Assembly: GCA_051362555.1 (NCBI GenBank)
Contig: CM120649.1
Coordinates: forward strand, 4,588,001 to 4,652,000
Origin: Lingula anatina
Taxonomy: Eukaryota; Animalia; Brachiopoda
DNA length: 64,000 bases
Direction of reading: 5' to 3'
Below are positions 17,471-58,912 of the stretch, one piece after another (position 1 is the first letter of the stretch; each line of letters begins with the position of its first letter). The notes beneath the pieces are model-generated. The model ran no database searches and had not been told where the DNA came from. It worked only from the letters and a program-made list of their open reading frames with translations. Position numbers and translations under genes: made by a program.

Positions 17471-17554
17471 CTTCAGTGACGGCAGGAACTTGGTGGACGT
17501 GCAGATGGTAGAACAGAGCTCACTCGGTTCTTTAACAGAAAGACGGAAATCCAA

Positions 17555-18219: not shown

Positions 18220-18267
<48 letters not shown>

Positions 18268-21009: not shown

Positions 21010-21051
<42 letters not shown>

Positions 21052-24450: not shown

Positions 24451-24505
<55 letters not shown>

Positions 24506-26300: not shown

Positions 26301-26357
<57 letters not shown>

Positions 26358-26847: not shown

Positions 26848-27436
26848 CTTCAGTGACGGCAGGAACTTGGTCCACGTGGAGATGATAGAAGAGAGCTAGC
26901 TTGGTTCTGCCACAGAGAGATGGAAATCCAAACAGATATTTATACAGAACACTGACTTGCACTAACTGGGACAAATTGCAGTCAAAATGATTTATTTCCG
27001 CGTATTGGCCAATCACTCTTTTGGGAACCACATGATAACAGTTTGTACACGACAATGATCAGGTACTCATAAGACATTAATAATTTGTGGAGGGAAATAT
27101 AGCTTTTTTGATACTTGTCACACAGATTCCTGGAAAGAATGCGAATATGAATTGGAATTGGGTAATTTACTTTACAAAGGTGCTGCATAATCAGAAGATT
27201 ATTTACCATTGCGTGAAACGAGGACCTGGTGGAATGTTTGCTCCCCCATTAAAAAAACATTAATACGTTAATACCTGGAAGGATACATAAATAGGTGAAC
27301 AATGAAATTCTCAACATAAAGGCATGAGGAAAGAGCACCTTGTCACTATAAAAAAGTCTTCAACACGCAAATTCGAAAAAGTAGTCTTTTTTAAAAAAAC
27401 TTTCATGAAAATATCACTTGCAACGGTTTTTGATGT

Positions 27437-27474
<38 letters not shown>

Positions 27475-29829: not shown

Positions 29830-30725
29830 ACACATTTACCTGGCATATATATTCAAGCCAACAGTAAATTGTCTCTTTTCCGAATACTTAACCAAAAGTG
29901 TGAAAGGGCAACTTATGTTGATAAAATAACAAATTATGACACCTTGTCAACCCTTGCTAATCTACGTCTTAGTGACCATAAACTCCACATCGAAACTGGG
30001 CGGCACACCAGGCCAAAAACTGAAAGGTGCGACAGAATCTGTCGCCTGTGCACCCAAGGGGTAATTGAAGATGAATACCATTTTATATTCCAATGCCCAA
30101 TGTACAAAACAGACCGAGTCACCTTTTTAAGTAAAACCTCAATCCTAAAAGCTGATCCCAGGCCACCAGACAGTCATTTATGCCATGTATTTAACAGTGC
30201 CAAAAAAGATACTCTAGTGTCCCTCTCCAACTTTATAATCAAATCATTCAAGAAAAGAAGTGAAGTAGTTGCTCTGCTTGGTAACTCTTAGCATATATCC
30301 CTTAAAATGTCAGTGTATGGTCCCACTGTTGTGAGAAGTGACTCGGCAGTGGGACTGAACATGGCACAATATTTATATCTGTGTAACTTATTTACTTATC
30401 TGTCTTATGTAATTGTCATTAGTCGTAATTATCCATGTCATCAAACTGGCTTTAAACAGCTATGTAACCTTGGTTTTAAGTTTAAACATATTCTTTTTGT
30501 GTAACATGTTTATAGTATGTTTATGGTAAATTTAAAATCACACCAAGGTTTATCGCATTGCTTAGATAGAATATTTTATGAGTAATTTTACTGATACATA
30601 TGTCCATTATATAAAGATGGTAATGCACTAACTGTATTGTATCGTCATTAGTATATCATATTGTACAAGGTCATGACAATCTATGTACCAGTACAGAAAT
30701 AAATTGAATTGAATTGAAATTGAAT
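29830..30725 (+). mobile_element. 5'-truncated LINE 3' end (RTE-X-like)
   Basis: ORF 29869-30291 carries LRLSDHKLHIETGR...CRLC...EDEYHFIFQC (C-terminal CCHC). AATAAA is followed by a (TTGAA)n tail at ~30700. Confidence 0.85.
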
Positions 30726-30819: not shown

Positions 30820-31550
30820 TTTTATGATATTTGATGAAAAAGGAAAATTAGACTGCAACAACATTTACAATAAATAATGTAGTCATTGAATCAGTTAAAG
30901 AATACAATTGTCTGGGCTTAACCTTTAAAAATACAGGTTCAATAAAAAACAATAATTTATAGAAAAAGGCCCTAAAGACAACTTTTTCTCTTAAAGCAGC
31001 CCTTTCCTCAATCAAGATATCATCTCCCCCACTCAATTTGAAACTATATGACAAAATCATCAAGGCCATCGTACTGTATGGGTGTGAAGCATGGTTTGAA
31101 GAAATATTCAAGGAAAAACAATGTTAGTGACCACGACTTGGAAATTGAACGGGGTCGCTATACTTCTCCTAAAACCCATACTGAAAATGGTAAGTGCCCC
31201 CACTGTAATGAAATTGAAACCAAAAATTCATTTTTACGGAAATGTGAAGAACATAGTGACATAAATAGAAGGCTCATGATACCTTCTAATCAGAAAACAG
31301 ATCATGAAAAACTCGAGTGGCTGCTCAGTCTAAAAAGTGAAACATTTTTAAGAGCCTTACATATATGTTTAAATGAAATTTTGAAAAAAAATGATACACT
31401 CGTCACTGGCAATATAGTAGCTGTTTTATCCTGTGCTACTTCCCAGTAATCATTTCATATGTATTTTGTATTTATATAGATGTTATAAAACTAGAAGTAG
31501 ATTAGAGAGCCTGTAAAATATAACTTGCAAACATTTTATTGCTCAATAAA
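30820..31550 (+). mobile_element. Degenerate, internally deleted LINE fragment
   Basis: VKEYNCLGLTF, LYDKIIKAIVLYGCEAW and SDHDLEIERGRY...CPHC remnants, with frameshifts. Confidence 0.75.
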
Positions 31551-38100: not shown

Positions 38101-41100
38101 ACCCATTCCCAAATCAGGAGAGAATGACTTGCGCGATCCAATGTCGTATAGGGGGCTCACTTTAATGTCAATCCCCAGCAAAGTTTATACAGCAATACTA
38201 AACGCCAGACTCTGCAAATGGCTCGAAAATAACAAGAAGCTAGCGGATGAACAGAACGGCTTTAGGCGCAACCGTAGCTGCCAAGACCACCTATACACTT
38301 TGTACAGTCTAGTTAAAAACCGCAAACTTGACAAACGTCCGACCTTTGCGTGTTTCGTCGATGCGCGCAAAGCATTTGATACAGTAAACCGTGATTTACT
38401 ATGGCACAAGCTAAGGAAAATGGGAGTGAAAGGGAAAATACTTGACGCAATTAAGTCATTATATCGCGGTAACAAATGCATGGTCAGAGTAAATGACATG
38501 TACACGGATGAGTTTCCGGTGCTCAACGGTGTAAAGCAGGGTTGCAACTTATCGCCCACTCTATTTTCCATGTATATTAATGACCTGGCAGATGATATCC
38601 GAGGTTCTGGAATAGGAGTTCAATATGAAAATCATACCATTGGAATATTAATGTACGCTGACGATATTGTGCTTTTAGCGGAAACGGAAAATGACATCCA
38701 AAGACAGCTGGATATTTTGCATCTATGGTGCAGAAAATGGCGAATATCGGTTAACCGAGACAAAACACAAGTTGTGCACTTTCGAACAAAAACCACTCAA
38801 TGTACTGGAGCAAATTTCAATTGTGGGAACATTGTCGTTGACGTTGCTGAAAGGTATAAATACCTAGGCTTGTGGTTTACTGAGCATTTAGATATGCATT
38901 TTACCGTATCAGAGCTAACGAAGTCAGCGAGCAGAGCGTTATTTGCTCTACAGTCTAAGTACTTTCTTGTTGGTGGTATGTGCTTTGAGGTGTACAATAA
39001 GTTATATAAGACATTAATTGAACCTGTTATGTATTATGGGAGCGCTGTCTGGGGTTTATCGTCCTTTCCCAAGCTAGACTCGTTACAAGCTAGAGCTGGA
39101 AAATTCTTTCTCGGAGTGCGTAAACACACTACAAACATTGCTGTAAGAGGGGAGATGGGTTGGCCCTCAAACTTAACTAATCAACGTACGGAAGTCTTAA
39201 GGTACTGGAATAAACTAAAGACATCAGATGAAACCAGGCTAATAACAAAAATCCACAAATGGTCGCTTTATAAACCGCGCACCTGGGAAAGTAGAGTGTT
39301 GTCGCTTCTGTCTCAGATGGAACTATATACGGAGGGAGACCTTGTCAACATTTCTTTGGCAAAAATAGTTTTAAAAACTGCGGATGAAAATTTATGGAAA
39401 ATTAAGATGTGGGACGACAAAAAGTGCACGAATGGCAATAAACTACGAACATATAGAACATTTAAAGGTGAACTTGTGACAGAATCTTATTTGCATAATA
39501 ACTATCTGACTAGAGCACAACGACGGACCTTTGCTTCACTACGCTGTGGAAGCGCACCCCTCAGAGTGGAAACCGGGCGTTATTCTAATACACCACTAAA
39601 TGAGCGCATATGCGTTTATTGTTCTTGTAATGAAATAGAGAGTGAGAAACATTTTTTAATTAACTGTGAGCTCTATAAAGACATCAGAGAAGAGCTTTTT
39701 AACCTTGCAAATCAAATAGACGGAAATTTTAATGTTTTTAATAACTATGAAAAGTTTATATTTCTTATGCAAAACGAACAAATACAATTTTATACAGCAA
39801 AAAAAGCACATGCAATGATGTGGAAAAGAAGCAAAGTTAACAACAAAGAGAGGGTTTAAAGTTTTATTTATAATATCCTTTTTTACGTATTTTATTGATA
39901 AGTAACAATTTTAATGAACTTCTTTGAATTTTAAATGCAGTAGCACGGGTTTTAGTCTCTCATAACCCTCAGCAGGGTGGGTTTTATTTATTTAAAACGT
40001 GAGACGTTAATAAAATTATTATTATTATATGTATATGTATATGTATATGTATATAACATATACATATACATATGCAATTGTGTTGTCAATACCATGTTAA
40101 TCAATCTACCCAGTAAAAGCCCAGTCGGGACCATGCGGTTGCCACGTTATTACCTGTACTTCCACATTGTATACGCAACGTGTTATAACCACGTAATACC
40201 AGCGCGTAAACCACGCGATCCCAACCTGATGGACACTCCAAAACATTTTTATGTCTTAAGTTATATAATGTGGAACTGGGCTGATCATGACGACAAAATA
40301 ATAGAAACAAATTGTATTTGATAAAAGCACTTATACTTTGATTATCACTTATATATGCATGGAAACAGTGGGTTTTATGTTTGCTTGTCGAGATAAATAT
40401 TTTCTAATTCTTTTCAGCTACAAAATTGACGAACCTGAGTTTGTATGGTTGAAGACAAATCTGGAAAAGACTATGCAAACCTTCTTTGGAGGTGTAGTTC
40501 CTACTGACGTCATTCCCGCCTTGAAGTATTTTCCTATCCCATCATCCCTCAAGATAAAACGACTCACGGATGACGTCATTGGTTTTCAAAAAGCCAAACT
40601 GGAAGACCACAAAATAAATTTAAAAACAGGTTTGCGATTTGTTTACATTTCACCCAAAATTAACGAAACTCTGCCTTTTCATGTGGATATTTTTTCGGAA
40701 GTGAGCGTACTGTTATCACTCATCGGGGTTAAACATTTGATGAATTAACTGTTACCTTAAATGCTACATGACTCCCACCTTGACAAAGTAAGTCTTAAAT
40801 CAAGGTGCATGTCCAGGGAGAAGTAGGGTAAACAGATTTTCTCGCTTATCCAGGCATCCCTTTGATTATCTGTCACTTTCAATTACTTGACTATTGCCAC
40901 CTACTCAGTTTCCACCATATTAAAATATTTATAAAATAGGTTGACCTATTCATCTCTTTACTCCACCTTTACCTGGAGGATAGGTGGTTATACAGGTACT
41001 TCGATTAGATATTTAATAATTCTTTCTGCACTTGTACTCAATGAAAGAGGAATTTGTTGTAAAATAATTTGGTAAATGATAAAGTTGTATTATCACACTA

Positions 41101-43211
41101 AAAATATTAATTAAATGAATGAAATATTTTAAACTTTACACTCTTTACTTTATATTATTTAAAGGGATAATAACTCTTCGTATGAGATCTATATTTCACA
41201 ATAAAAACATTGTGGATAACTCATAGAAATATAATATATTCTGTTTTACGACAAAAACAGCAGTTTTAGCTATTATTCTGATACACGTATCTGAGCTTGT
41301 CTTCAGATCACGTGACCTGCATTGATGGCTATACTCTGTTGTAATCTCTTAGATTTAAAAAAAAAAACTTTTTAGAAAAAAAAACAGGGACTAGCTTTGA
41401 AAGTAAAAATGGATTCATTAACCATTGGTAAGTATGGGAAAATTGTTGCTTACTCCAGGAACATTCATTTTTTGGTCAAAACAAAGAGTTATTATCCCTT
41501 TAATTATATTCCTCTCGGAGAGGGGGGGGGGTCGTCCGGGGGAAAATTGTCCTGGGGGGGGGGGTTGTCCTGGGGGAATGACTGAGAATCATTTAAAATA
41601 TGAATGTTTCTGTTAAGGTGAGGCCAGAGACATCATGGAGCAGATGTTGCTACTGAGAGAGGAGCTGACAGATGAAAGTGATGACAACATCAAGGAGTCG
41701 CTGACTGACACTCGCATCCTGCACACCTTATTGGATATATTTGTCGGTGGGTACAAAAAATTAACGCGACATGTATTTAGCTTCCGTACTCTATAACGGT
41801 AGATGCTTTGTCAATGAATACGTTGAAGTTTTATTTCATCATAGTACTCGATAACAAAACCATATGTGTCGTTTGTACAGCAAAGTCACAGTAGCTTTAA
41901 TGTTTCCTTCAAAAAGAAAAAAAACATTTAATTAGTTGCCAATTTACTTATAATTATAATAAATATATTTTATTCAGCTAATAGATATGTCAAATATTTA
42001 TCCAAAACTAGATTCCCTCCGAGCTCTTAAAAGTGATATTAAACTGAAATAATAATAGTTATAATAATAATAATGATAAATATCATCAATTTGGATCGGA
42101 AAAAAATATAACGATTAATTACACGGTGTATAATATGATAATTATAATTAATTTTTTGAGTTAAAACGAGAAATAGCTAAAGGGTAAAGTTATAGTCTTG
42201 TGACTTGGTAGAAATGGAAACAAACTAAAAGCGGGATGATGAAGGTCGCTCATCGCGCGTGCCCTGCTCCTCTCCAATATCTTTCAACAAAGATATTCCC
42301 AATATATGGTAATTCACGGCCAGTTATCTCATTGCGTGTGTTTACAATACTGTCCAGTTTCCCCCTGACTCCGTTGCACCACTACATCACGTTATTATAG
42401 CAAACATCCAAATATTCTCTATCGTGGCTGTAACACTGCATTTTAAACCCAAAATAAGTCTTAAATTCCTCAAAATAAATCATCCTTACAATCCGGATTA
42501 AAAGTAACATATACAGGTACATGTAAATATTCGTGACTGATTACTTGGCCTATGTTTGTTCAGTTTTGAGGTTTGTGTGCAAAATAATAACTACATATTC
42601 CTAAGATGTCATAGATTAGCCTTCTGTAGAATAAAACTTATATTTTGTAGCTGGAACAAATACCACATCAGATACGTTGAAATGGATGATTATGTATGTA
42701 GCAGATAATCCGAAGATTCAGGCAAAAGTACACAAGGAATTAGACGGCTTAGGTAAACATATTCCTCTCTCTTTTGTGATGATTTTGAAATATATCTTAC
42801 TTGATAAGCCACATAATTCAGTATTATAGAAATCGGCATATTAGTACACGTAGTTGAAATTTTAACAAATTCCAAGACGTTGGCCCCATTGTACAAGTAC
42901 TTTTGTTTTGGATACTTTGACCCTTTATGAAATATTAAACAAGATTTTAAGAATTTATTCCATTTTCTACACAGGTAAAGATTTCGACAATCTCCGTCAC
43001 TGCAAATCCAAGTTGCCTTACTTTGAGGCAGTTCAACGAGAGGTTATGCGCATGCGCCCTGCTGCCCCGGCAGGTCTTCGTCACCAGACCCTCTGTGACA
43101 CCAAACTAGGTCAGTTATCATGACTCTCATTTGTTTTTGGTTTGGTGCGCCTACAGGGGCATAATTTTTTACATGTGAACAGACGTTGTAACTTTGGGCA
43201 GCAGCAAATCT

Positions 43212-43259
<48 letters not shown>

Positions 43260-44319
43260 GCCCCAAATATGTATTCCATGCTTTTCGAATTGACAATTTT
43301 CACATTCCTAGTTTTGCTACTAACATCTCCAGTTAACACGACGATCAATTGCATAGCTAGCCGTTAGTAAAATTAAATATATGGGTACCCTTGTAGCAGT
43401 GGACATTTTGTACATAAATGCGGTAAGAGTGTTACTTTTGATCGGAGAGTATATGTATATGTAGAAAGAGATTTTAGTTGATCACGCGCGCACTATAAAA
43501 TAACCATTGATCAGCTCGTGTTATGCTGTCTAAAGTAAGTGAAAATTAGGTCAAATGTCAATAAGGTGGCCTGATAGTAGAATGTTGATGCCAAATCTTT
43601 ATACCCTTATGTTTTTCACGCAGGTGGCTACGATATCCCAAAGGGCACTCTTGTCTATGCAAATTTTTGGACAATCCACAATGACCCGAACATTTGGGAA
43701 TCGCCGGAGGTTTTCAAGCCAGAGAGGTTTTTAAACAAAGATGGCAGCTTGAAAGAGTTGGATAACAAGGTTTGGGTGCCGTTCAGCAGTGGCAAGAGGA
43801 AGTGCGTGGGAGAAGCACTTGCCAGGGCAAACATCATGATGATTTCGGTGAGTGCACGTGGGCACAATCTAAATCCATTCTGGGACATACACGGTACACA
43901 TTTTAGCACATTTGTTTGGTCTGCAGGACACAGAGTTTTTTTATTTATTTTTATTTATATATTTGTATTTACTTTTTTTATTAAACAGGACAAAGTAGGT
44001 ATAAATTAAACTAATGAGCACTTCATCAGCCTGATATATACTAAAATATTTAAATACAAAGCTTATTAAATTGGATTAACTGATTTTAACCCATGATTAC
44101 TTTAAACTTTCCACCTTTAAAAAGCTTGCAAAGCATATTCATATATAACTATACATCCCTAACAGAAAGCATTGATCTATTTATTTGCAGGCACTATTTT
44201 TCCGTCGGTTTAAGGTGAGCTTCCCATCAGGCCAAAAGCCAGACTTCGAGCCTTCAAAACTTTATGAAATAAGTTGCAGCCCCAACCCTCAGAAGATTAT
44301 TGTCCAGAAAAGAAACTGA
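35184..44319 (+). CDS. Cytochrome P450, clan 2 (CYP17A1-like), 506 aa
   Basis: 11 exons: 35184-35337, 35589-35669, 35993-36097, 36409-36502, 36945-37100, 40418-40629, 41618-41746, 42651-42752, 42975-43109, 43624-43847, 44191-44319, all in frame. TM anchor, PPGP, FAGR, DIAFANYGPVWKLQR (WxxxR), I-helix AGTNTT, EVMR, PERF and heme motif FSSGKRKCVG. Confidence 0.95.
36707..36912. mobile_element. Harbinger-like MITE (same family as 48512-48736, opposite orientation)
   Basis: GGGCATTCCCA...GGAAATGGGGTC. Body sequence is shared with the 48512 copy. Confidence 0.75.
37538..40048 (+). mobile_element. Young 5'-truncated LINE (RTE-X-like) in CYP intron 5, with uninterrupted RT ORF
   Basis: Frame is open from 37538 to 39859, with QNGFR, GVKQGCNLSP, LMYADD, YKYLG and a C-terminal CCHC. 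No endonuclease domain. (ATT)n/(ATGTAT)n tail. 20-bp TSD GTATATAACATATACATATA at 37518-37537 and 40049-40068. Confidence 0.95.
41163..41499. mobile_element. Kolobok-like MITE (TTAA TSD), copy 2
   Basis: TTAA|AGGGATAATAACTCTT...AAGAGTTATTATCCCT|TTAA. Confidence 0.85.
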
Positions 44320-45794
44320 TGTTTGATGCCACGACGGTTTACGCAGACAGTTTTCAATAAGTCTCTAACTGGGTTGTTATTTGGAACACATTGATTAGAT
44401 GGTTAACTGGCGTAGATAACAGTATTCTGAAAAGTTGCTGTAGTTTGGCTTAAAAATTGGCACTGGAACATATCCCCTATTATATCGCCTATATAATCAC
44501 AGCATTAAGTCCTACAATCAGTACAATCTTTTCGAAAGGCTCAGGCCTTCTATTTTATCGGTATGACAATTCCTTTGTTTGACGGAACATCGTAATTAGA
44601 GATCAAGGCTCACATATCTCCCAAACAGAATGATAATTACACTGACATTATGGCCAAGGCACGAGTATCAAATTATAAGAAAAAGATTTATCATTAAAAA
44701 ATGAGTGCTTTGTGTTGGAAATTAGCAAAACTAACTAGGAATGAAAAGTACTGGAAAAAGTGCCATTATATCAGGTTATTTCTTCTAGTCGTTTTGGAAT
44801 AAACGAGATTTCTTCCTCTAACACTATATCTCTGTATTCTTGTAAGCATCGAGGTTTTCAATACAAAAAGGGTCACACTTTTTTTTATCCAATCTTATGT
44901 ATAACACGGTCACCTGAGCCATTTTTGTTCCTTAGATAGGAGCTTCAAATATCTTTCTAATCGAGGCGAATCGATAAATAATTGTTGCTGTAAACCAAGA
45001 CTGATTGCGATAACTTAATACTGCGCATGCGACACAGGTAAGTTTACCTGCCCAGCGGCTCAGGTGTGCCGACAGGTGAGTCTTCATCAGCCTCGATGGC
45101 GCCTCTCCGGACGCATCGGTCTCCCTAATATCAGCCAATCGCGTCCCTCAAAACCTTCCAACATTCTTCCAAGATTTGCTCACTAGCCAATTACGAGGCG
45201 TGGAGCCTTCCAAGATTAATATCGTTGGAAAATTTCTCTCATTTGTTTGCATACCAACAAGAAGTACTTCCAATATTTCTTTTTTTTTTTCATTTAATTT
45301 TTTCTCGGGAAAATTTGTACATTTTCAAGTTTATTGTGATTAATAATGCAAAGTTTTATCGTTTTAAAACTTTTTTGTATAAGAAAAAGGTTATCATTAT
45401 TATCATTTTAGACTTCAAATTTGTGGAAAATTTAAAAAATATCATTAGACAATTTCTCTCATTTGTTTGCATACCAGCAAGAGGTACTTCCAATATTTCT
45501 TATTTTTTTCATTTAATTTTTTCATTCTGAAACAACTTCATTGGCAGCCCATAAATACACGGAATCTTTTTAAACGTTTGATATACGCACACGCTGCTTT
45601 TTACAACTTGGCCCAATAAGACCTTATATCAATTTACGACCCCCCCCCCCCTTCAGTTACGCTCTTCAGACCATTGACTTTTCATGATGATAATTCTTTT
45701 ACTGTCGCTGCACCCAAGGAATGGAATTAAGTGCCACTTTCACTGCGTATGAAAGACTCTCCAGCTACATGTACTTTACAAATGGCATTCAAGA

Positions 45795-45864: not shown

Positions 45865-47382
45865 CTTTTGAATTCATGTGATTAAGTAATATTTCAATTT
45901 CTACATTGCTTTAATTAAATATCCTGCTTTAGTTAATTTTTTAATAGCTTTTATATTACTTCTCCCACGTAATTTTCATTTTTATCTTAAAGGCTATTAA
46001 ACAAATGTGGGTTTTAGACTTAAAATAAGTATTATTATTATTATCTGTGCAGCAATTAACTCCTTAGGCTGAAAAATGTGGCAACGCCTCTTTACGCCCC
46101 CCCCTTTCCAAGCATGACCGTGTAAAACTCGATCATCACCTGTGACAAGTCACCTAATTGACTCGCTCTAGACGTGTGGTTTCATTTTCGGAAGTCGGAC
46201 AAGTGGATGGGCACAAACTGCGGTTGCCAATAGCTTTTATCTTGAGTAAATATCACATCTAATTTATCTATGTATGTCAAATGTTGTAACGATCGATAAG
46301 AACTGCGCAGCAAGCAGTAATATGGTGGAATGGAATCAACAGGCGTAACATTTTATCACGTTAGGAGATCACAGGTAAAGGTATTCCTTTGATATAAACA
46401 AATATTTTATTAATTTAACAAACAATGATATTTTTCCTACTATCGGTAGATTTCCGACTTTAAGGGAGCCAAATATATTTATTTTGAGTTCTATGCACAG
46501 CCCCAGCCCCGACCCTACGCTATATGTTCAGATTTTGTCACAAATGGCAGTCTCTGGTCTGCATCCCCGTTTACCACCAGACAGAAATCGCACTTTTGGG
46601 ACAATGCTGTTTACTAAGCTAAATCAATGAGCTCCCAACACTACTTCTATGTGATGTACTAGTAACTGTGCATTGCCAGCTGATTTTGATACATTTTATT
46701 GTGAATGCTCCTCATTAAATTGGAATTCACATGGCGAACTTGTACCTGTAACCCCCACTATATTTATGAGCATTTAAATGTGTCTGTCCTCCTTTAATTA
46801 TCCTATTATTCCTTCGAGGTCTGTCACACACCCCCCCCCCCCCCCCTCTTTCTCTCTCGTCACTTGATTTATTAAAGTTTATTTTCGGAATTTAAAAAAA
46901 ATGGCAATACAGTTTACTTTAATTTCGAGATTGAATCTTTGATTTTCGGCTTATCAGAGGTTTAGGTGTCTAATTCTCTCCTGTAACAGGCGTTACATAC
47001 TATTATTTTCTGAAGAATTTTTGAAGACTCCATGGACATTAATTGTGATACTTTTGGCACCAAAATTCTATGTTTGGTACCTCAAGAAATATTGCAGTGC
47101 TCTGTTTATTAAATAAATTAGTATCTGACATACTTTAACTGTTAACTTCTTACCTTTTGATTTTTCAGATAACAAGATAATTCAAAGACAAAACATCCGT
47201 CATTTGATGACAAAGTCACTTCCCTTATCATAGCACATAATCAGGGAAACGAAATTAAACATTGGCAAACAAATTCCATACGTTTTAAACACATGAATGT
47301 TATGGAGGAACTCTGATAAAAATCACACGTTTTGTCAGAGATATTGGTTCCGCTTGCGAACACATTGCTTAACAACAGTGAC

Positions 47383-50192
47383 ATGGCTTACAGACAAGCA
47401 GTAGCAGGTGAGGACATTCTTGATCTCTTATGTAGGATACAGTTGTCGCCGAAGTCAACGCTACCACACAATGTATTGGGGCTGACTGAGCTTGGCATGA
47501 GCTGCGCTGATATAGCCAGTCTACCAGAGTCCATAAGCATATGCAGAAATGTTAAGAGGATTTTTGCCAGAGGTAACAAGTTAACTTCTTTACCGCAGTC
47601 CATAGGCAACCTGCCACACCTCACACTGTTACACCTAGAGGAAAATAAGTTCACTGCATTCCCTACAGCACTCTATAGCCTTGATAACCTCGATACGCTT
47701 TACCTGTCTAACAACCAAATATCTGCCATATCGGTCGAGATCAAAGGGATGCATAAGCTTAGGGTATTCTGGCTCAGTCACAATGCTTTCACCACCTTCC
47801 CTGCAGCGGTGTGTGGCCTGACTAACCTAAAGGAGCTGCACCTAGAAGGCAACCAAGTAGCTGATGTACCAGGTGAGATACGTGAGATGAGGGGGCTAAC
47901 AAGGTTCTTCCTCAGTCACAATGCCTTCACAACGTTCCCAAAAAATCTATGTGGCTTGACGAACTTAAAGGAGCTCTACCTGGATGGCAACAGAATTTCT
48001 GAAATCCCAGCAGATATCAATAGGATGGCATTGCTTAAAATACTTAACCTTGCGTCCAACAACATCACCCACTTGCCACCTCAAATGAAAACTATGAAAA
48101 ATCTAACAGAACTTGGTGTGAGCCATAACCCACTGGTACAACCACCAGGGCACATTACAGCGGGAGGAGTTGATGCAATCAAAAGCTATTTGGAAGCATT
48201 GACTGACCGAGACATAACCGGATGCTTTAATACCAAAGGAGGTGATGTTTACCAAAGCGATCACTCCACCTACCTACCCGAACTTGGATTGGTTTTCATC
48301 ACTATAGTGGAGGGCAGAGGCAAGAAGGCTGACACTGATGTGAACAGGTCCATTCCTGAAAGTTTGACTAATGATCTTTTACAGTAAGTTATTTTTCTTT
48401 ATCCAGTTTTATCATTTCGCTGTATAATTGGTGTCACTGAAATGCACCAGCCACATTTCTCTGGTTATAGGGGTAGGCAAGCGAGATATGTTGTTTCCAA
48501 ATGTTTACTAAGACCCCATTCAAATAGGTTATAGATCGATCTATCCCTGTGGGGAGTCTCACTAGATTACTGTCAGCTTAGCCGGCTTAAGCGTCTGTCC
48601 CGCCTACTAAAAGCTGTAAGGGGGTAATTAACTATTGTGCGCGCTCGGCTGACTGCAATTTAGCGTGAACCCCTAGGGAGTTAGGTCGATCTAAATCTAA
48701 ATCTCTGGATCGATCTAAATCTCTGGGAATGCACCCTAAGACATCATTCACATGAAAAATCCAAATTCCAAAATTCTTAAAATCCATTGGCGGTATCTAA
48801 TGATCACGGCCTGTGCCCTGAATACCCCGCGGCGTTATTATCTAGCAGAGCGAGCGAGTTACCTCCAAAGCTGTAATTAAATCTCGGTTGCGCTCGAAGG
48901 AGATTCTGACACCTGGATGCATGCGCAGTAATACGTTAGAGGGAAAGAAAATGGCGTTTACAGATACTACTGCGCATGCTTCTAGGTGTCAGAATCTCCT
49001 CCGAGCGCAGCCGAGTGTTAATTACAGTTTTAAAAACGACTCGCTCGCGCTGCTAGTTAATTACTAAAGTTTCACATCTGTATCTGGTTCGTTGGGGACC
49101 CAGTAAATCACAGAACGATTCATCCCATAGCAAAGTCGAGGTTAACAATAAAAGTTTCCTCAACCAACAGAAAAAATGCAAGTTTCTTACACCGTTTTTG
49201 ACTGTTTCATCAGGGAATAAAAATTCAGGTATTATATGAGAAGTAGCCTTTCCTGAGATTTATTTACTTATTTCAGATTCGAATTTGTCGACATGTTTGG
49301 GTTTGGAAAGGACAGCTTTCAAATATATGTCTGCAGAAAGCACTTTAGAAATTACACCGATCTTGACGTGATAAACAAATTGAAGACCTTAGTGGAGGAA
49401 CATGGGGTGGATTGCAAAGTAGTAGCACACATATCTTCTGCTCCTCGACGGTTATCATATTTCTGTGGCAGGGAACCACCCGGGCCAGCGGTAACAATTG
49501 TAAAGGACACAGAAAATAATAGATATGGATCCCTTGGCAGTTACTGTCGCACAGATGAAGCGGATTCTAAAGTCTATGTCCTCACCAATGCCCATGTCGC
49601 CAGCGAAGGAGATATAAGGTTGATCCAGTCTGGTGGATCTCAAGTTCAGAGTGTTAAAGTATGCATGCATCAGCGGAAAGGTAAATGTAATTGGAGCATT
49701 TCTACAGGCACAACACCATCTTCTTTTGTTGACATCGCAGCCATAGAGGTTCCAAGCCTTGGTCTGTGCCCCGGGTTGGAGAGGGATCCTGTGGTTGGCA
49801 TCTTTAGTGGCGAGCTTGGAAGCGTTGTCGGGCAATCCGTTTATAAGCATGGCGCCAAAACAGGGCTTACGCATGGTGAACTTGTAGGGTTCGATTTTGT
49901 ATCGCGTGATGAAAATTCACGTGCCTTTAAAGGACTTCTCTACGTGAAAACCACGAAGGGTGATTTCTCCAGTCCTGGTGATAGTGGCTCACTCGTTCGC
50001 TTGACAAGGGACAAAAAACCTCTAGCTATGGTGTTTGGCGGTAACGTGGAAATGAGAGGCGATGGAAATGGAGATCGAAAATCTTTTACCGCGTGCTTTT
50101 TACTAAGCGATGGATTAAAGGAGTTGGAAAAAGTGTCAGGTAAAACATGGATAATGGAGGATGAAACGCGACTTCAGTGCTTGATGGAATAA
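47383..50192 (+). CDS. LRR / NAL1-like trypsin-fold serine protease fusion, copy A (638 aa)
   Basis: Exons 47383-48383 (CA|gtaagt) and 49277-50192 (tttcag|A) join in frame. About 10 23-aa LRRs ending NPLVQPP...GVDAIKSYL. Protease motifs GSLG, LTNAHV, FVDIAAI, KHGAKTGLTHG, PGDSGSLV, LAMVFGG. No signal peptide. A probable non-coding first exon ends at ~46374. Confidence 0.9.
48512..48736. mobile_element. Harbinger-like MITE, TAA TSD
   Basis: TAA|GACCCCATTC...GGGAATGCACCC|TAA. Absent from the paralogous intron of copy B. Confidence 0.85.
48842..49057. mobile_element. Foldback MITE with ~90 bp inverted arms
   Basis: CTAGCAGAGCGAGCGAGT...GCATGCGCAGTA pairs with TACTGCGCATGC...ACTCGCTCGCGCTGCTAG. 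Absent from copy B. Confidence 0.8.
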
Positions 50193-51346
50193 TTCCAAAT
50201 AGTGCTGATTGTCCCGTACAAAATGCGTATAGACAAACGGAATCCTAATTGTAAGGTAATTGTACTGCCTCGTTTATGTGGCAGTGTATGCAGACAAATG
50301 TTGTATACTGGTATTTGGGATTGAAATGAAAGTTTAATTTGCACAATTGTACCACTACTATAAGCGTGAATCCTTCTGACTGCCTGATTACCGCATTCCC
50401 ATCCTCATGTTGTTTTGATCCCCCTTTTGTATAAATTGCGTTTGTTATTAGCAAAACTGTAAGTATCATTATCAAGAACAAAGTCATATTGTGCTGCTGG
50501 TTGATAAGGATACAGCAGTGGGATTTTCTACTACTATGTGCAGCAGCAAAGCAGAGTGTATTTTATATATTTTAACACCTCTTTTAGAATGCTAGGCCTC
50601 TGGTTGGTCAGTTGCAATGCCCTTATCTGTATAGTATGCATATGTTTACGTATCACTCATTATTACCATCATACAATGGATGAACTTGTTTGTAGGCCTC
50701 TGATTGGACAGCTACCGTTCTTTGTTGAGTGACCTTTTTTCTGGGGTTTTGATTGTTCAATTTCAGATATTGTTTTTCAGATATAATATGTCACTTGCTA
50801 CTAATATGTCAACTGCCTTAAAATTCAACGCAATGCCGTCTGATATTAGAATACGTCTTCTTCCCACATTTCTATGAGCTTGCTACTTCACGCAAGACGT
50901 TACATGTCAAGCAGACAATTTGTTGGGTCCAGCCAGGCGCCTTGCTCCGTACATTCGTGCGCTGAAACTCAACATTTATATAGTGCAGCCCTTTACAGTG
51001 CCATTATAGTCACTGTATATGTGTCTCTATAAAAGTGATTTGGGAAACAGGCACACGCCACCCATTGGCGTTGAGTATAATACAGAAAAGGTGGTGATTA
51101 TACAAGTATACGTTGGGAAAAAGAGAAGGCATTTTAATATGTTAGTATGACCGCAATCAGCGAGCGTCTACGTAGACCAAAAGTCTCAACGGTAATGGAC
51201 CACAGGCTGTGATTGCTTGATGATGCATAATTTTAATTCACGTATTCGTTGTCATTTGAATGAAAAATGAGGATCCAAAACCTGGTCAAATTCTACATTG
51301 ATCTCGACAAGTGTGGCCCAACCCAACCCGTTCTGAACATAACACT

Positions 51347-51420
51347 ATCAAAACACATGTTTGAGGGTATATCTGCCAAAATTCTGTCTCCTCTGGCGTG
51401 TTGGTTCGCCCCAAAGATGC
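51347..51420 (-). pseudogene. Orphan, frameshifted remnant of the DUF924 last exon
   Basis: LGRTNTPEETEF followed by small deletions. Matches 57996-58070 and its 3' flank. Confidence 0.8.
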
Positions 51421-54118
51421 TATATATACAGGGTTGTCGTTTTAAAGATACATCATAATCACCATGTTTATGTTGTAATAGTAATACATAAATGTATGGA
51501 CCCTCCAGCACTTATATCCCAAAAGCATATATTGTAGCAGTGTCACAGCTTTGTGAATTTGGTTTTAAATTGCTTAAAATCTTGAATTATTTTCTTTCAG
51601 GATAATTTGTCACATGTCTACCGTTTTTAAAACACAAAAAAAGATTAATAATAATCACCGTGTTGATGTTGTATAATAAGTAAATAAGAAAAAACGAACC
51701 TAGACGGTATTAAGATCAACTATTTTGGTATAGAGTTTGTGTGCCTTTTTCAGTGACTAAAAATAAATAAGAAAAATAATACGTGACGTAGGCCTACATG
51801 TATGCGTAAGGCACGTATGTTAACAGTGCGTACTTAAGATTAACGACATCAACATTGTGTAACAATGATAGAGAATAATATTCGTTGGGAAAGCCCATTG
51901 AGCCCATTTTTAAAGTGTTTAGTATTTTTATGAACGTCTGTCCTTTTCTTGCCTTGCGTATCCACGAGCTAGCAGAGTGCATACATGTAGTGTAGGTGAC
52001 AGCTGTGTGTGCGTGTGCGTGTGCGTTTGTCTATGTGAGATGTATAAAAGCTAAATCTATTTATATAAGTTCCGGCAAAGTGGAATATAAAGGCTCTTAT
52101 TATAACTAAAGAATCTAGCTTTTGGTTTTTCTTTTCTCATTTTGTATTAAATTTACTTTTCATGTGTTGCATTTATTTATTTCTTTTTAATTTTAAAATT
52201 ATTATTTTAATGTTATTATTTATATATTATTTATATATTAACGAGTAAGGGAGAAAATTTATGCAAAAATGAGGGCTTAAACGATTATTGGTAAAACCGT
52301 TTTGAATGCGACCGCAGACGTACGTGAGCGAATTTTTTCAAATTACTTTTTTTTTCTGCGGCGCCCTACTTGCTTATTTATATAATAATGATAAACCCAT
52401 CCATATATTGTGACCACCTTTTACCTACTCAATAATTCAGGAAGAAATTATAACTCCTTAGTCACATAGAATACAGCTGAAGCAGCACCTTCGCCATGAT
52501 TTTGATTGACAGCCCCGACCCAAACAGTCTGTTAAGACACGCCCATCATATCACGCCCTAGATATCACATAAACTTTACTCTCAAATCTAGCTATAGGGG
52601 CTTTAGATGTCCTCTGTCGCACCTTGTAGAATTTATAATTCTCATTTTAACAACTTTTGAATTGTGTCATGCACCAGCTTGACGAAATTTCAGACTTTTT
52701 ATTCAAGGTGTACGGCAACTGCTTTCATTATTGCACGCCACCTGGTGTCGAGAGTTTGTAACAGCGGGGCGGGGCGGGGGGGGGGGGGGGGGAGGGGTCG
52801 ACACCGTGACTGCTTAGTATTTGATTTCTAAGGCTGAAAACTAGGGCAAAGTCTTTTTACATTCCTCCCTTTAAGCACAACCGTGTAAAACTCGATCAAA
52901 TATGATGCCAACATTGCACAAGTTGGCACACGTGCATTTCACCTAGGTAAATGCGTACAATAGCTATAATATATTGAGTAAACATCACGTCAGCTGTTTG
53001 CATGTCAAATAATGTAACGTTCGATAACAACTGCGTAGCAGGTAAAAACATGGTGGAGTAGAATCAACAGGCGTAACATTTCATAACGTAAGTAGGTCAC
53101 AGGCAAAGTATTCCGTCGATATTGTTTTAAAAGGCAGATATTGTTCATTTAACAATCAATGAGATATTTCCGACCATAGGTGGATTTGTGAGTTTCTGGG
53201 GAGCCCAAAAAATATCATTTTTGAGATTGATGCAGAGCCCCTCCCCCTTCGGTCCCTACGCTGAATTTTCAGACTGTTTTTTTTTTTTAACAAAATGGCG
53301 GTCTCAGCCCTGTTTAACACCGGACAGAAATCGAATTTTTAGGACAATGCTAAATCAATGATCTTTCGATCCTACGTCTCTGTAATGTAGTAGTAACTGT
53401 GCAGTGCAAGCTGATTTCGATACATTTTATTGTGGAAAAGACATGGCTAACACGTACCTGTAACACCCACCATATTTATGTCTATTGAAATGTGCCTGTT
53501 CTCCTTTTATTCTCCTGTTATTTTACGAGGGTCGTCACCCCCCTCTCTCTGTCTCTCTCCCGATCCTTGATTTGTTGAATAGACTGAATGTGCTTTTCTG
53601 AATTTTCTAAAAATAGTATAACAGTTTATTTTAATTTCGAGATCTAATATTCGACTTTTGGCGTATCACTGGTTCTAGTGTTTAATTCTCTCTTGTAACA
53701 GTCGTTACATACTATGAATATCCGTAGAATGTTTGAAGATTCCATGAACATGAATTGTGATACTTTTTCCACCAAAAGCCTATGTTTGATACCTCAAGAA
53801 ATATTGCAGTTTTCTCTTTATTAAATAAAATAGTATCTAACATACTTTTCTCTATCAACGTATTGCATTTTTATTTCAGATAATGAGATAATTCCAAGAA
53901 AAACATCCGTCATTTGATGACAAAGAGACTTCCCTTATGATAGCACATAATCAGGGAAACGTAATTAAATATTGGCCAAAAACAAATTCCGTACATTTTA
54001 AACACATGAATGTTATGGGGGAACTCTGATAAAAAAATCACACATTTTGTCAAAGACACTGATTCCACTTACGAACTCATTGCTTTAGAACAGTGACGGT
54101 TCTCCCTATAGCTGAGAC

Positions 54119-56698
54119 ATGGCTAAAAGACAAGCAGCAGGAGGTAAGGACATTCTTGATCTCTTACATAAGATACAGTTGTTTCCACAGTCCACGTTAC
54201 CGGACAATTTGCTGGAATTGACTGAGCTTGGCATAAACTACGCTAATGAAGAGAATCTAAAGAATCTTCCAGAGTCAATTAGCATATGCAGAAATATTAA
54301 GAAGATATTTGCCAGAGGTAACCATTTCACTTCTTTACCGCAGTCCATAGGCAACCTGCCACACCTCACATTCTTACACCTGGACGATAATAATTTCACT
54401 GTATTCCCCACAGCACTCTATAGTATTGATAACCTCGAAACGCTTTACCTGTCTAACAACCAAATATCTGACATATCGGTCGAGATCAATAGGATGCATA
54501 AGCTTAGGGTATTCTGGCTCAGTCGCAATGCCTTCACCACCTTTCCTGCAGCGGTGTGTGGCCTGACTAAACTAACGGAGCTGCATCTAGAAGGCAACAA
54601 GATATTTGATGTACCAGGCGAGATATGTAAGATGAAGGAACTGTCAAGATTATTCCTTAGTCACAATACCTTCACCGCCTTCCCTGCAGAGGTGTGTGAC
54701 CTGAATAAACTAACGGAGCTGCACCTAGAAGGCAACCAGCTAACTGATGTACCTAGTGAGGTTAGTCAGATAAAGGGACTTACAAGATTCATCCTCAGTA
54801 AGAATGCCTTCACAACGTTCCCCAAAATCTTATGTGGCATGTCGAACCTAATGGAGCTCCACATGAAAGAAAACAGAATTTCTGAAATCCCAGCGGAGAT
54901 CAATAGAATGTCATCGCTTCAGACGCTTAACCTTGTGTCCAATTACATCACTCACCTGCCGCCTCAGATGAAAACTATGAAAAACTTAACAAAACTTGAC
55001 GTGGCCAAAAATCCACTGGTACAACCACCAGAGGGCATTGCAAGGAGAGGAGTTGATGCGATCAGGAAGTATTTTGAAACATTTACTGACCTACCGGGAC
55101 GTGGATTGGATTTCATCATTATAGCGGAGGGCAGAGGCAAGGAGACTAGCACTGATGTGAAGAGGACCATTCCTGAAAAGTTGAAAAATGATCTTTTACA
55201 GTGAGTCATTTTTCCTTAATTTTATTTTATTTATTTTTATCATTTCGCTGTATAATTAGTGTCATTGAAATGCACATCTCTCTGATTGTTGGGGTAGGAA
55301 AGCGATATCGGTTGTTTCCCAATGTTAAATAGGTTTCCCTTCTGTATCTGGTTCACCTGGAACTCAGTAAGACCCATTCATCCCATAGCAACGTCTTGGT
55401 TAACACTAAAAGGTTCCTCAACCAACAGATAAATGTGTTTTACAAGGTTTTGACTCCTTTATCAGAGCATTCGAGTAACGGTATTACTCGTATATGAGTA
55501 GTAGCCTGTGCCTGACTGAGGAGAGAATTCAGCACAATGTTTCTGTCATAGGAGTTTCTGTTTGAGGAGTTTCTTCCCTGAGGTTTTTTTTATTTATTTC
55601 AGATTTGAATTTGTCGACATGTTTGGTTTTGGACCTGACAGCTTTCAAATATATGTCTGCAGAATGCACTTTGGAAGTAACACCGATCTTGACGTGATAA
55701 ACAAATTGAAGACCTTAGTGGAGGAACATGGGATGGATGGCAAAGTAGTAGCACACATATCTTCTACTCCTCGACGGTTATCATATTTCTGTGGTAAGAA
55801 ACCACCCGAGCCAGCGGTAAAAATTGTAACGGACACAGTAAATAATAGATATGGATCCCTTGGCAGTTACTGTCGCACAGATGAAGATAATTCTAAAGTC
55901 TATGTCCTCACCAATGCCCATGTCGCCAGGGAAGGAGATATAAAGTTGATTCAACCTGGAGGATCTCAAGTTCAGAGTGATAATGTATGCATGCATCAGC
56001 GTAAGGGTAAATGTAATTTGAGCATTTCTCCAGGCACAACACCATCTTCTTTTGTTGACATCGCAACCCTTGAAGTTCCAAGCCTTGGTCTTCGTCCTGG
56101 CGTTGGGAGACGCTCCACAGTTAACGTCTTTAGTGGGGATATTGGAAGCGTTGTCGGGCAATCCGTCTATAAACATGGTGCCCAATCGGATCGTACTGAA
56201 GGAACACTTGTAGGGTTCGGTTTTGTATCGCGTGATGAAAATTCACGAGTGTGTGAAGGGCTTCTTCGAGTGCAAGGTCAGATTCGTGATTTCGCTATGC
56301 CTGGTGACAGTGGTTCGCTCGTTCGCTTGGCAAAGGACAATAAACCTCTAGCTATGATTCTTGGAGGCGAAATAGAAATGAGACCTGAAGGAAATGGAAA
56401 TAATCAGGTGTATGAAGGAAATGGAAATGATCAGGGGGGTGAAGGAAATGGAAATCATCAGGGGGGTGAAGGAAATGGAAATCATCAGGGGGGTGAAGAA
56501 AATGGAAATCATCAGGGACGTGAAGGAAATGGAAATGATCAGGGGGATACCACATGCTTTTTATTAAGCGAAGGATTAATGGAGTTAAAAAGAAAATCGG
56601 GTAAAACGTGGAAAATTGTGGATGAAACGCAACTTCAGTGCTTGATTGAAAATAATGTTAGTCTTCTAAAAAACGCTTTTACTCAAACGCAATCGTAA
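54119..56698 (+). CDS. LRR / NAL1-like trypsin-fold serine protease fusion, copy B (725 aa)
   Basis: Exons 54119-55200 (CA|gtgagt) and 55603-56698 join in frame. About 12 LRRs. LTNAHV, FVDIATL and PGDSGSLV triad motifs are intact. Confidence 0.9.
56387..56548 (+). repeat. Coding 27-nt minisatellite x6 (EGNGNxQGG)
   Basis: GAAGGAAATGGAAATnATCAGGGGGGT-like units, in frame within protease B. Confidence 0.95.
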
Positions 56699-57995
56699 TT
56701 GTCAGATTATTTTACTGCGGAGTTTGTCTGGCAGTGTATGCAGAAATATGTTGTATTCCGGTATATGGCATTTGAATAAAATTAAAACTTGCATAATTGT
56801 GCCTGTACTATATCATATTTATGAATCCTTTTGAAGTTTGATTCCAGCATTCCAATTCCCGGGTTGTTTTTATCATCCTTTTGTATAAATTGCGTTTGAT
56901 ATTGGCAAAACTATAACTTTTATAAGCAAGAGCAGAGTCACATTGTGCTGTTCGTTGATAAGGATACAGGATGGGGATTTGCCACTCTATACAGCAGTAG
57001 AGCAGTGCACAGTGAATTTGATATATTTAAATACCTCTTGTAGAATTCTATGCCTCTGGTTGGTCAGTCGCAATACCCTACTCTGTATAGTATGCAAGTG
57101 TTTAAGTGGCACTCATCATTACCATTATACAATGGATGAACTTGTTTGTATAGGCCTCTGATTGGACGGCTACCGTTCTTTGCTGAGTGACCCCTTTTCT
57201 GGGCTTTTGATTGGTCAATTGCAAAACCCTTTTCAAGTATTACTTTCCTGATATAATATGTCACTTGCTACTGTGCAAGTGCCTGTATATATGAAGTTGA
57301 ATTGCTATGAGTTTAATTTCCTAATAATTGATAAGAAAGTAAGATATTATTTTAATTGTTTTTGTTTTTACCTAAGCTCTTATTATCTATATAATAAGTT
57401 GTAATCCTGATAATTTTATCTGTAAACAGCACTGAGACGCGGTAGTGTAGTGCGGTTTTAATAAATAAATATTATTATTATTATCTAAAACTAATTTGGT
57501 TATTAATATCGTTAACTGTTTATTTTCACCTTTAAATATCATAAGTGTAAAATTTGCACTACCAATTACATTTACTATCAATAAAATGCAGATTAATCAA
57601 CAAAACTCAATTTTTACTTTCCGTTTTACTTTGATAGAGCGGTATAAAAATAGAGCACTCTCTCTAGCGTACTACATAGAATGCGACGCAATGAAAGAAT
57701 TAGGGTCCGAGGCTTTATAGATATAAGTTGGATTTTTTTCTTCATAGGTCACATAGATATACTTTATTAACATATCTCTAGATGCAAAGCCTCCATGACT
57801 GGGAACCTGTTTTCTTTCCATTCAATTTGAAATATCGGGAAACATTAGTAGATTGGCAGTCGAAGTACAATGAATACAAAACAAAATATAATAAATAATC
57901 GAATGCAGAATACAGACCAAAAACCAGTTCAGATTCGGTATTAATGTCGACAAGTGTGACCTAACCTTAAATATCCCTTTCTGAACATTACACTA

Positions 57996-58912
57996 TTAAA
58001 AAACATATTTTGAAGGTATATCTGCCAGAAATTCTGTCTCCTTGGGCGTGTTGGTCCGTCCTAAAGCTTCATTTCTTTGTGGATACCGTCCAAATCTCTC
58101 CACGATTTCCTGAAATATTCAAATTGTTATCAAAAATAGATATTAGTCGAAGAACATTGTTGATTCTACGTAGCTGAACGACTAGGCGAATTTTTAAAAA
58201 TAAAGAATAAACCAAAAGTCTCTGATTAAAATGTAACCATGTAACGTTGACATGGATGTCACCATAGAATCAATATTGCTGTCAAAAGTAAATGTTTGGT
58301 TAAAAAGTGAACAAATTACACTTTATTATTTGTAATATTTGAGCCAAGCAGCTATCAAACTAAATAGGTGCACTTTTTAAAAGTCATTTAAAATTACTTT
58401 TCAGTCGTTCCAGCACAATGTCATCTCTCAATATTTGAAACTGAAACCACAATTGAATCATTGTGAATTTTTTTTATATATAAATGGGCGGCTTACCGCG
58501 TGAAGTTTTGCGAATAATTTAAAATTATCAGCCAGTGCCTCCAAGACAGTGCCCTTAAAATCTTCAGCAAGTTCCGAGGTCAAACGTAGGCACAATTCCT
58601 GAAACAATAAATGTTAGTTTGACCCATATATTGTAATCCTTCGATAGCAATTAATGGCGATGTTCAGTTTCCTACATACCGTTTATGTGATCCTTTATCT
58701 CAAAAGATCTCCAAAAGTAGCGTCAGTTACAATATATAAGTTTAGATGCCGTGATTTTGACAGTATTAAAGGCAATTCTACAACTCAGATAATGGCGTTT
58801 AATGTACTTTGTTAGATTAAATACCACATTTAAATGTTAGCAGAAAAGCAGTAAATGCAAAAAGCGGCGATTAGGTACGCAGCTGGTAAGTTAAGGCAAA
58901 AAAGAGAGAGAA

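What the first reader, a model, noticed from the sequence alone, without database searches (positions are those of the whole stretch)
47383..56698. Cytosolic LRR-sensor / NAL1-like serine protease fusion genes: candidate one-component immune receptor-protease
Seen: two intact tandem genes. In each, a phase-2 intron joins an LRR exon to an exon with a trypsin-fold protease (TNAHV / VDIA / GDSGS), with no signal peptide or TM segment. Known: the LRR cap NPLxxPP..I...G..AI..Y is the one that precedes the ROC GTPase in Roco/MFHAS1-type proteins. The motifs KxGxxTGxTxG, F..GDSGSL and hhGG, and a preceding FGFG...IYVCRK segment, resemble plant NAL1, fungal Ssy5 and bacterial S1 proteases rather than disulfide-rich animal trypsins. 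Bacterial gasdermin systems use repeat-domain-fused proteases, including trypsin-like ones. Inference: a ligand-gated zymogen in which LRR binding releases pro-domain inhibition and triggers cleavage of an effector, i.e. a caspase-independent inflammasome-like device. I know no characterised animal family with this architecture, but could not run a search.
Basis: partly seen in the sequence, partly recalled or inferred. Interest (0 to 1): 0.9.

Follow-up and report, generated by a model that had tools for sequence, protein, structure and literature searches.

The report
LRR sensor fused to NAL1-type protease
Two neighbouring genes, likely from a lingulid brachiopod, each have a leucine-rich-repeat exon predicted to splice in frame to a serine-protease exon most like the rice enzyme NAL1, giving a likely cytosolic receptor-plus-protease protein that may be part of an unstudied protein-cutting arm of invertebrate immunity.

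Summary
Two tandem, uninterrupted two-exon genes (638 and 725 aa) join 9 or 11 cytosolic-type LRRs, a small alpha/beta domain and a chymotrypsin-fold protease with a complete His-Asp-Ser triad. The phase-2 GT-AG intron cuts through the small domain. A profile of 11 relatives gains 11-12 bits from the join (0 of 300 shuffles match), and an NCBI Lingula anatina model has the same junction. RNA reads cover both exons thinly, but no junction read was listed. Rice NAL1 is the best sequence and fold match (Z about 18). The protease belongs to a brachiopod and bivalve group with the triad kept in 14 of 14 aligned sequences and varied N-terminal modules, including CARD-NACHT-like-TPR in one Lingula model. 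The LRR fusion was seen in only 1 of 103 database hits. I found no paper on the group. Not shown: activity, ligand, substrate, immune role, or that the small domain is an inhibitory pro-domain; in NAL1 the domain at that position drives oligomerisation. It is not a Roco protein, an NLR or Ssy5. Verdict: a real, new variant of a known kind; sensor-gated defence protease is the best reading (about 0.5).

The parts
47383..48383 (+). Gene 1 exon 1: short N-terminal segment, 9 regular 23-residue LRRs (aa 57-250), LRR cap, linker, first helix of the small alpha/beta domain (from 48352)
48384..49276 (+). Gene 1 intron, 893 bases, GT..AG, phase 2; holds a dispersed repeat and a long inverted repeat
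49277..50192 (+). Gene 1 exon 2: rest of the small alpha/beta domain and NAL1-like chymotrypsin-fold protease, with stop codon
49593..49595 (+). Gene 1 catalytic His440 codon
49731..49733 (+). Gene 1 catalytic Asp486 codon
49983..49985 (+). Gene 1 catalytic Ser570 codon
54119..55200 (+). Gene 2 exon 1: 11 regular LRRs, cap, linker, first helix of the small domain (from 55169)
54518..54822 (+). 138-base (two-LRR) internal tandem duplication, accounting for the 2 extra repeats of gene 2
55201..55602 (+). Gene 2 intron, 402 bases, GT..AG, phase 2
55603..56698 (+). Gene 2 exon 2: small domain and protease; triad codons 55919-55921, 56057-56059, 56309-56311
56386..56546 (+). In-frame 27-base (9-residue, Gly/Asn-rich) repeat, 6 copies, in the loop after the hhGG strand of the gene 2 protease
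46228..51416 (+). Extent of copy 1 of the tandem duplication (72-85% alike to copy 2 in pieces, flanks included)
   Evidence: self-BLAST
52958..58066 (+). Extent of copy 2 of the tandem duplication
   Evidence: self-BLAST

Best explanation
Each gene has an LRR exon and an intact-triad protease exon that are predicted to splice into one likely cytosolic protein, which likely works as a one-piece defence receptor: a ligand would bind the LRRs and would switch on the NAL1-type protease, which would then cut a host signalling or death protein. Shown: the exon-intron anatomy, open frames, triad residues, and low-level RNA over both exons. Predicted: the splice (about 0.93), the two-barrel fold, and a small alpha/beta domain between the LRR and the protease. 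Inferred: that the LRR gates activity, and that the role is immune. How the switch works is open. It may be self-cleavage with a retained inhibitory piece, as in Ssy5; a conserved large hydrophobic residue followed by a small one sits at the domain boundary in 13 of 14 aligned sequences. Or it may be ligand-driven clustering, as NAL1 needs its hexamer. I put these about even.
For: Join: and the same junction in NCBI model P0001. Fold: AlphaFold model of P0001's last 353 residues, pLDDT 79.9, with the exon-1 helix folding into the small domain. NAL1 tops Foldseek (E 9e-14) and VIA-align over 48,161 chains (Z 18.1, rmsd 3.6, 210 aligned; next non-NAL1 chain Z 16.4). Triad H-D-S kept in 14 of 14 aligned animal-group sequences at about 24% identity, which fits selection for activity. 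Same protease behind CARD (E 1e-11), a below-cut-off NACHT (E 9e-4) and TPRs in Lingula model P0004. Tandem duplication with change in LRR number. LRR consensus positions conserved (pN 0.04-0.05 against pS 0.26) while concave-face positions are not (pN 0.22, pS 0.22-0.25). Precedents: Runella gasdermin-linked protease with LRRs (PMC13475620, passages); a trypsin-like protease needed for gasdermin defence in Lysobacter (PMC9079055, passages); trypsin-like effectors on bacterial STAND and death-like domains (PMC8195603, passages).
Against: No junction-spanning joint was listed in 4 runs (exon depth 0-11, 8 joints hidden, gene 1 stretch only). Coding-exon bins were at or near zero in 2 of 4 runs. 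Concave positions are not clearly more variable than convex ones: p 0.03 or 0.12 by repeat register, and 0.36 or 0.46 with P0001 added; pN does not exceed pS. The small domain's homology to NAL1_N is not significant by profile comparison (probability under 1%). No effector gene was seen in the window's long ORFs. NAL1 and Ssy5, the studied relatives, are developmental or nutrient-signalling enzymes, not immune ones. P0004 is an automatic gene model. PADLOC had no hit for P0001 or exon 2.
Confidence: 0.5

Rival explanations
1. The protein is a non-immune regulatory protease. The LRR is a substrate or localisation adaptor (SHOC2- or LRRD1-like) that brings an always-competent or oligomer-controlled NAL1-type enzyme to a host protein, much as NAL1 trims transcription factors.
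For: The closest solved LRRs are LRRD1, a Leptospira LRR protein and SHOC2. NAL1 cuts the transcription factor FZP (PMC12012508) and Ssy5 cuts Stp1/2 (PMC6761765). RNA was seen in runs of 1 of 3 studies, which could be tissue- or stage-bound. No clear positive selection.
Against: Narrow distribution (1 of 103 hits has this fusion), recent tandem copies with repeat-number change, and a relative with CARD-NACHT-like-TPR fit conflict genes better than a conserved regulator.
Confidence: 0.25
2. The LRR binds a pathogen protein and the protease cuts that same protein, a direct restriction factor in the manner proposed for FAM111A, with no downstream host effector.
For: Sensor and enzyme lie in one chain, and no effector gene is adjacent. 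The second barrel and the loop after the hhGG strand differ most between the copies (62% identity against 83-84% for the small domain and first barrel; repeat insert). FAM111A is an intracellular trypsin-like protease with an antiviral role (PMC10920703, PMC11847056, search listing only).
Against: dS also varies by region (0.05-0.47), so the uneven divergence may reflect gene conversion. FAM111A is a distant fold match only (Z 12.9, rank 29).
Confidence: 0.15
3. The fusion is not made or not active: the exons are expressed apart, or the copies are young, decaying products of exon shuffling.
For: No junction read listed and very low depth. A Met codon lies a few codons into exon 2. Overall dN/dS between the copies is 0.60.
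Against: The intron splits a conserved domain. Both copies and P0001 keep open frames, splice sites and triad. LRR consensus sites and barrel 1 (dN/dS 0.40) are under constraint.
Confidence: 0.1

Closest known systems
Rice NARROW LEAF 1 (NAL1; PDB 7Y77, 8PMG, 8HAU; Pfam Nal1_C PF25819; PMC12012508)
   Same: Best PDB sequence hit (E 1e-5) and best fold. Intracellular two-barrel serine protease preceded by a small alpha/beta domain. Profile match to a plant homologue at probability 97.8 over 193 columns.
   Different: NAL1 has no LRR. The loop with its ATP-binding R120/R122/K123 is missing here (by-eye comparison with plant homologues printed). NAL1_N (PF25608) is not hit. The N-terminal strand NAL1 uses for hexamer formation is replaced by the LRR region.
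Yeast Ssy5 (peptidase family S64; PMC6761765)
   Same: Cytosolic, receptor-controlled serine protease of alpha-lytic type with an autolysed, retained inhibitory prodomain: the closest working model for a gated zymogen.
   Different: Pfam S64 scores 13.7 bits against a cut-off of 23.6 for gene 1 and is not listed for gene 2. Ssy5's receptor is a separate membrane protein.
Alpha-lytic protease and Streptomyces S1E proteases
   Same: Next fold matches (Z 16.4-17.2). Atlas models with the Pro_Al_protease domain align over query residues 312-612 (TM 0.63).
   Different: Secreted bacterial digestive enzymes (recalled), with no sensor domain; 17-20% identity.
Bacterial gasdermin-associated multidomain proteases
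   Same: Repeat-domain sensor fused to a protease: the Runella enzyme has LRRs (PMC13475620), and the Lysobacter system needs a trypsin-like protease (PMC9079055).
   Different: The Runella enzyme is caspase-like and has an NTPase. The gasdermin is encoded beside it; none was seen here.
Roco proteins (MFHAS1, bacterial Roco) and LRRD1/LRRIQ4/SHOC2-class LRRs
   Same: 23-residue LRRs ending in an NPL..PP cap; top Atlas structure rows and PDB hits.
   Different: No ROC or COR domain. Only about 50 (gene 1) or 30 (gene 2) residues separate the cap from the small domain.
FAM111A
   Same: Intracellular animal chymotrypsin-fold protease, dimer-dependent and antiviral (search listing).
   Different: Distant fold match (Z 12.9, 10% identity); no LRR is known for it (recalled).

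Membership tests
Chymotrypsin-fold (clan PA) serine proteases | Two-beta-barrel fold | tested here: met
   Model pLDDT 79.9; all 50 listed rows of the wide search are trypsin-fold proteins
Chymotrypsin-fold (clan PA) serine proteases | His-Asp-Ser triad in order, in the expected motifs | tested here: met
   His and Ser motifs align with NAL1's. Side-chain geometry was not measured.
Chymotrypsin-fold (clan PA) serine proteases | Proteolytic activity | not testable with these tools
   Needs a bench assay
NAL1 family | Nal1_C domain above the curated cut-off | tested here: met
   45.2 and 38.3 bits against 26.1
NAL1 family | NAL1_N / ABD domain before the protease | tested here: inconclusive
   A small helix-strand-strand-helix-strand domain is modelled there, and the Atlas aligns 267 residues over 312-617 to a plant NAL1 cluster (TM 0.70). 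But there is no PF25608 hit, hhalign probability is under 1%, and the domain was not folded alone.
NAL1 family | ATP-binding residues R120, R122, K123, K139 | tested here: not met
   By-eye motif comparison with plant homologues (residue list): the basic loop is absent; a K139-like Lys is present in gene 1 and P0001 but is Met in gene 2
NAL1 family | Hexameric cage needed for activity | not testable with these tools
   Six copies exceed the size limit of the complex tool
Ssy5 / peptidase S64 | Pfam S64 match above cut-off | tested here: not met
   13.7 bits against 23.6 (gene 1), not listed for gene 2
Ssy5 / alpha-lytic-type zymogens | Autolytic cut leaving an inhibitory prodomain | not testable with these tools
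   Only a hint: F/Y/L/M followed by a small residue at the boundary in 13 of 14 rows, read by eye
Roco proteins | ROC-COR tandem after the LRR cap | tested here: not met
   No Roc or COR family at E up to 1, and no room for it in the sequence
NLR / STAND receptors | NACHT or NB-ARC NTPase domain | tested here: not met
   Absent from both genes; a weak NACHT match lies in the relative P0004
Secreted animal trypsins (S1A) | Signal peptide and Pfam Trypsin match | tested here: not met
   No PF00089 hit; no hydrophobic leader by hydropathy

The most novel reading that the evidence does not exclude
Brachiopods and bivalves use an NAL1-type serine protease as a swappable immune effector module in place of caspases. 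It is bolted onto LRR, CARD-NACHT-TPR and other sensors, and these two genes are its simplest form: a one-protein inflammasome-like switch in which ligand binding to the LRRs triggers cleavage of a death or signalling protein.
Probability: 0.35. Interest if true: 0.85.

Novelty: new variant of a known kind. Interest (0 to 1): 0.6.

Why it matters
Animal cytosolic immune receptors are known to signal mainly through caspases and kinases (established knowledge). A receptor carrying its own serine protease would parallel the bacterial and fungal sensor-protease systems and add a proteolytic arm to brachiopod and bivalve immunity, including farmed oysters, mussels and clams. These two genes are small (638 and 725 aa), intact and two-exon, so they are an easy entry point. 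One construct set (wild type, Ser-to-Ala, LRR-deleted) tests activity, gating and self-cleavage at once. It would also show whether the small domain shared in position with NAL1 acts as an inhibitor or as an oligomerisation module.

Tried and rejected
No whole genome is held for this window, so paralog number and genomic context outside it are unknown. No RNA holder was listed by the index; the 9 runs were additions by species label. Reads were laid on the gene 1 stretch only, so gene 2's junction was not examined directly. A single-sequence fold of P0001 failed (pLDDT 39.4), so LRR-protease packing was not modelled. A three-copy complex job gave no verdict (0.31 against a mark of 0.32); it is no evidence either way. 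Word-index homologue searches found only P0001. The alignment search found none, not even two 728- and 927-aa relatives that were in the query alignment, so these blanks say little. The search for related loci could not use the alignment, and found no relative in metagenome contigs (0 of 66 pattern matches). The viral fold library gave only generic trypsin-fold matches. NCBIfam gave only below-cut-off LRR matches for P0001. The wide fold search barely tested the small domain (rows span 107-337). A first test of LRR diversification (concave against all other positions, p 0.0003) was set aside, because the comparison class held the structural consensus residues; the fairer test is. A vestigial ROC P-loop in the linker was considered by eye; no PDB or Pfam alignment reached that segment, so it is not claimed. 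Literature search was uninformative (307,472 papers matched one term).
Full report
Observation. The window is AT-rich eukaryotic DNA (GC 0.33-0.44). Between 47383 and 56698 lie two copies of a tandem duplication whose starts are about 6.7 kb apart. Joined, they give 638 and 725 aa without internal stops. Pfam finds LRR families in exon 1, and Nal1_C above its cut-off in exon 2, with Trypsin_2 and Peptidase_S64 below cut-off. Gene 1 has 9 regular 23-residue LRRs and gene 2 has 11, through a 138-base duplication. Hydropathy shows no TM segment or leader.

Is the join real? Three lines support it. First, the nearest database protein, Lingula anatina LOC106181623 (P0001, 626 aa, 72% identical over exon 2), is an NCBI model with the same junction; it is an automatic model and I did not see its evidence. 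Second, a profile of 11 relatives, made without these genes or P0001, aligns without a gap across the junction, because the last helix of exon 1 is the first helix of a domain the relatives carry in one piece. The real tail adds 10.8 and 12.0 bits, which 0 of 300 shuffles per gene and 0 of 127 and 141 other exon-1 stretches reach. Third, the structure model folds that helix into the domain at pLDDT 87-94. RNA does not settle it. I laid 4 of the 9 listed runs on the gene 1 stretch, reading 6-30% of each. Two runs had essentially no coding-exon reads. Two runs of one study had summed depth of about 0.2-11 on both exons. No joint at 48383/49277 was among the 15 shown (8 hidden; 3 reads needed). 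Of 13 listed exon-2 variants, 11 match gene 2's letters, and the 1 listed LRR variant looks like a gene 1 allele (165 variant rows were hidden). So both copies, or close paralogs, appear to be transcribed at low level; the libraries gave no strand.

What the protease is. NAL1 is the only PDB sequence family hit at E under 0.001 (9 of 11 listed sequences). A model of P0001's last 353 residues from a 77-row alignment has pLDDT 79.9. NAL1 leads Foldseek, the second-look alignment (Z 18.2; a Streptomyces protease is 1.0 lower at 17.2) and the wide search (Z 18.1, rmsd 3.6, 210 aligned; next 16.4). HtrA-type and animal trypsins score lower. The small domain before the protease sits where NAL1 has its ABD and alpha-lytic proteases have their pro region. 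The Atlas aligns residues 312-617 to a plant NAL1 cluster (TM 0.70) and 312-612 to pro-alpha-lytic-type clusters (TM 0.63), but profile comparison of that domain alone is not significant.

Family. A full HMMER search with exon 2 gave 103 hits at E up to 0.001, only 2 below 1e-10. I looked up 21 of them: 5 Lingula, 6 bivalve (Mytilus, Ostrea, Saccostrea, Mercenaria), 1 Lentzea and 9 unnamed. All 22 other hits longer than 440 aa were scanned. One Lingula model is CARD, weak NACHT, TPR, Nal1_C. None joins LRRs to the protease; P0003 has BspA-type LRRs but is a repeat-driven match with no protease family listed. The 77 members of alignment A3 showed no LRR family either. So the LRR fusion is 1 of 103 hits, and the organism is inferred to be a lingulid. 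The triad is intact in 14 of 14 aligned sequences. A quick tree (85 of 113 rows kept; 28 short or partial rows dropped; SH-aLRT only) puts all named animal rows in one 34-row group at support 90. Of these, 18 are window genes or named animals and 16 are unnamed or not looked up; plant NAL1 lies elsewhere. This is weak, biased by an animal query, and I ran no one-clade test, so I claim no origin.

Evolution of the two copies. They are 74% identical, with dN/dS 0.60 overall; dS ranges from 0.05 to 0.47 by region, which suggests gene conversion. LRR consensus sites are constrained. Concave-face sites change about as fast as silent sites, but are not robustly faster than convex ones. Gene 2 has a six-copy, 9-residue insert after the hhGG strand; from general knowledge of this fold, that loop borders the substrate pocket.

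Mechanism. The best reading is a sensor-gated cytosolic protease used in defence (0.5). The architecture, the CARD-NACHT-TPR relative, the tandem variation and the bacterial precedents (passages of PMC13475620, PMC9079055 and PMC8195603) point that way, but every functional step is inferred. Yet plant NAL1 homologues have a similar SY[FY]G motif there, and NAL1 uses that domain for trimer contacts and needs the hexamer for activity (PMC12012508, parts 1-2 of 7 and passages). The rivals are a non-immune adaptor-protease (0.25), a direct restriction factor (0.15), and a non-functional or unjoined pair (0.1).

What is known. It works most like Ssy5 or NAL1 (a gated intracellular PA-clan protease) with the layout of bacterial gasdermin-linked proteases. 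It is not a Roco, an NLR, an S64 member or a secreted trypsin, and it is NAL1-like rather than a full NAL1 member. Searches for NAL1 with Lingula, LRR and serine protease, NACHT/CARD/Lingula/protease, NAL1 with Ssy5 or bacteria, gasdermin with invertebrate proteases, NAL1 with bivalve, Lingula immune expansions, and the terms NAL1-like, Nal1_C, PF25819, PF25608 and Peptidase_S64 (2 papers, both for the last term, listing only) showed no description of this animal group. I judged most hits from listings, and the library lacks most subscription papers. Earlier notes of this scan report the same protease type in a clam, an annelid and fungi; they are unchecked leads, not support, and none has the LRR form.

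Verdict. Real genes, a well-supported but not RNA-proven fusion, and an apparently undescribed sensor-protease architecture within an unstudied brachiopod and bivalve family; function untested. New variant of a known kind, interest 0.6.

Noticed in passing
window 48510-48740: Dispersed repeat inside the gene 1 intron. RNA depth reaches hundreds to over a thousand, from reads that run on into unlike sequence, so it is carried by many other transcripts. An inverted copy lies at 36700-36916.
   Followed up: partly
window 48834-49064: About 230-base imperfect inverted repeat (MITE-like) in the same intron, absent from gene 2's intron.
   Followed up: no
window 40305-44320 (+): Multi-exon cytochrome P450 gene ending about 3 kb upstream of gene 1; one exon hits p450 at E 1.5e-26.
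   Followed up: partly
window 37526-39859 (+): 777-aa open frame of a non-LTR retroelement reverse transcriptase (RVT_1, E 1.8e-38); related fragments at 29806-30291 and 31042-31449.
   Followed up: partly
window about 11300-29800 (-): About four tandem copies (68-85% alike) of a multi-exon gene whose first exon has a signal-peptide-like start and a vWA-like DSSGSI motif. No convincing Pfam hit for the three exon frames scanned; the vWA label is recalled.
   Followed up: partly
window 2-1265 and 2335-3598: Recent direct duplication, 92% alike over 1.27 kb.
   Followed up: no
P0004 (Lingula anatina LOC106167851): 1,786-aa model with CARD, weak NACHT, many TPRs and a C-terminal Nal1_C protease with intact triad: an NLR-like receptor ending in a serine protease.
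   Followed up: partly
P0041, P0050, P0051, P0067, P0085: Relatives with 400-550 residues of unannotated, partly shared N-terminal sequence before the same protease module; it looks by eye like a degenerate GTPase plus helical region, untested.
   Followed up: partly
Atlas clusters: An 872-member cluster with LRR plus Trypsin_2 (taxa not recorded, score 0.87, a lead only) and a 50-member arthropod cluster with LRR plus Trypsin: LRR-protease fusions of other protease types exist.
   Followed up: no
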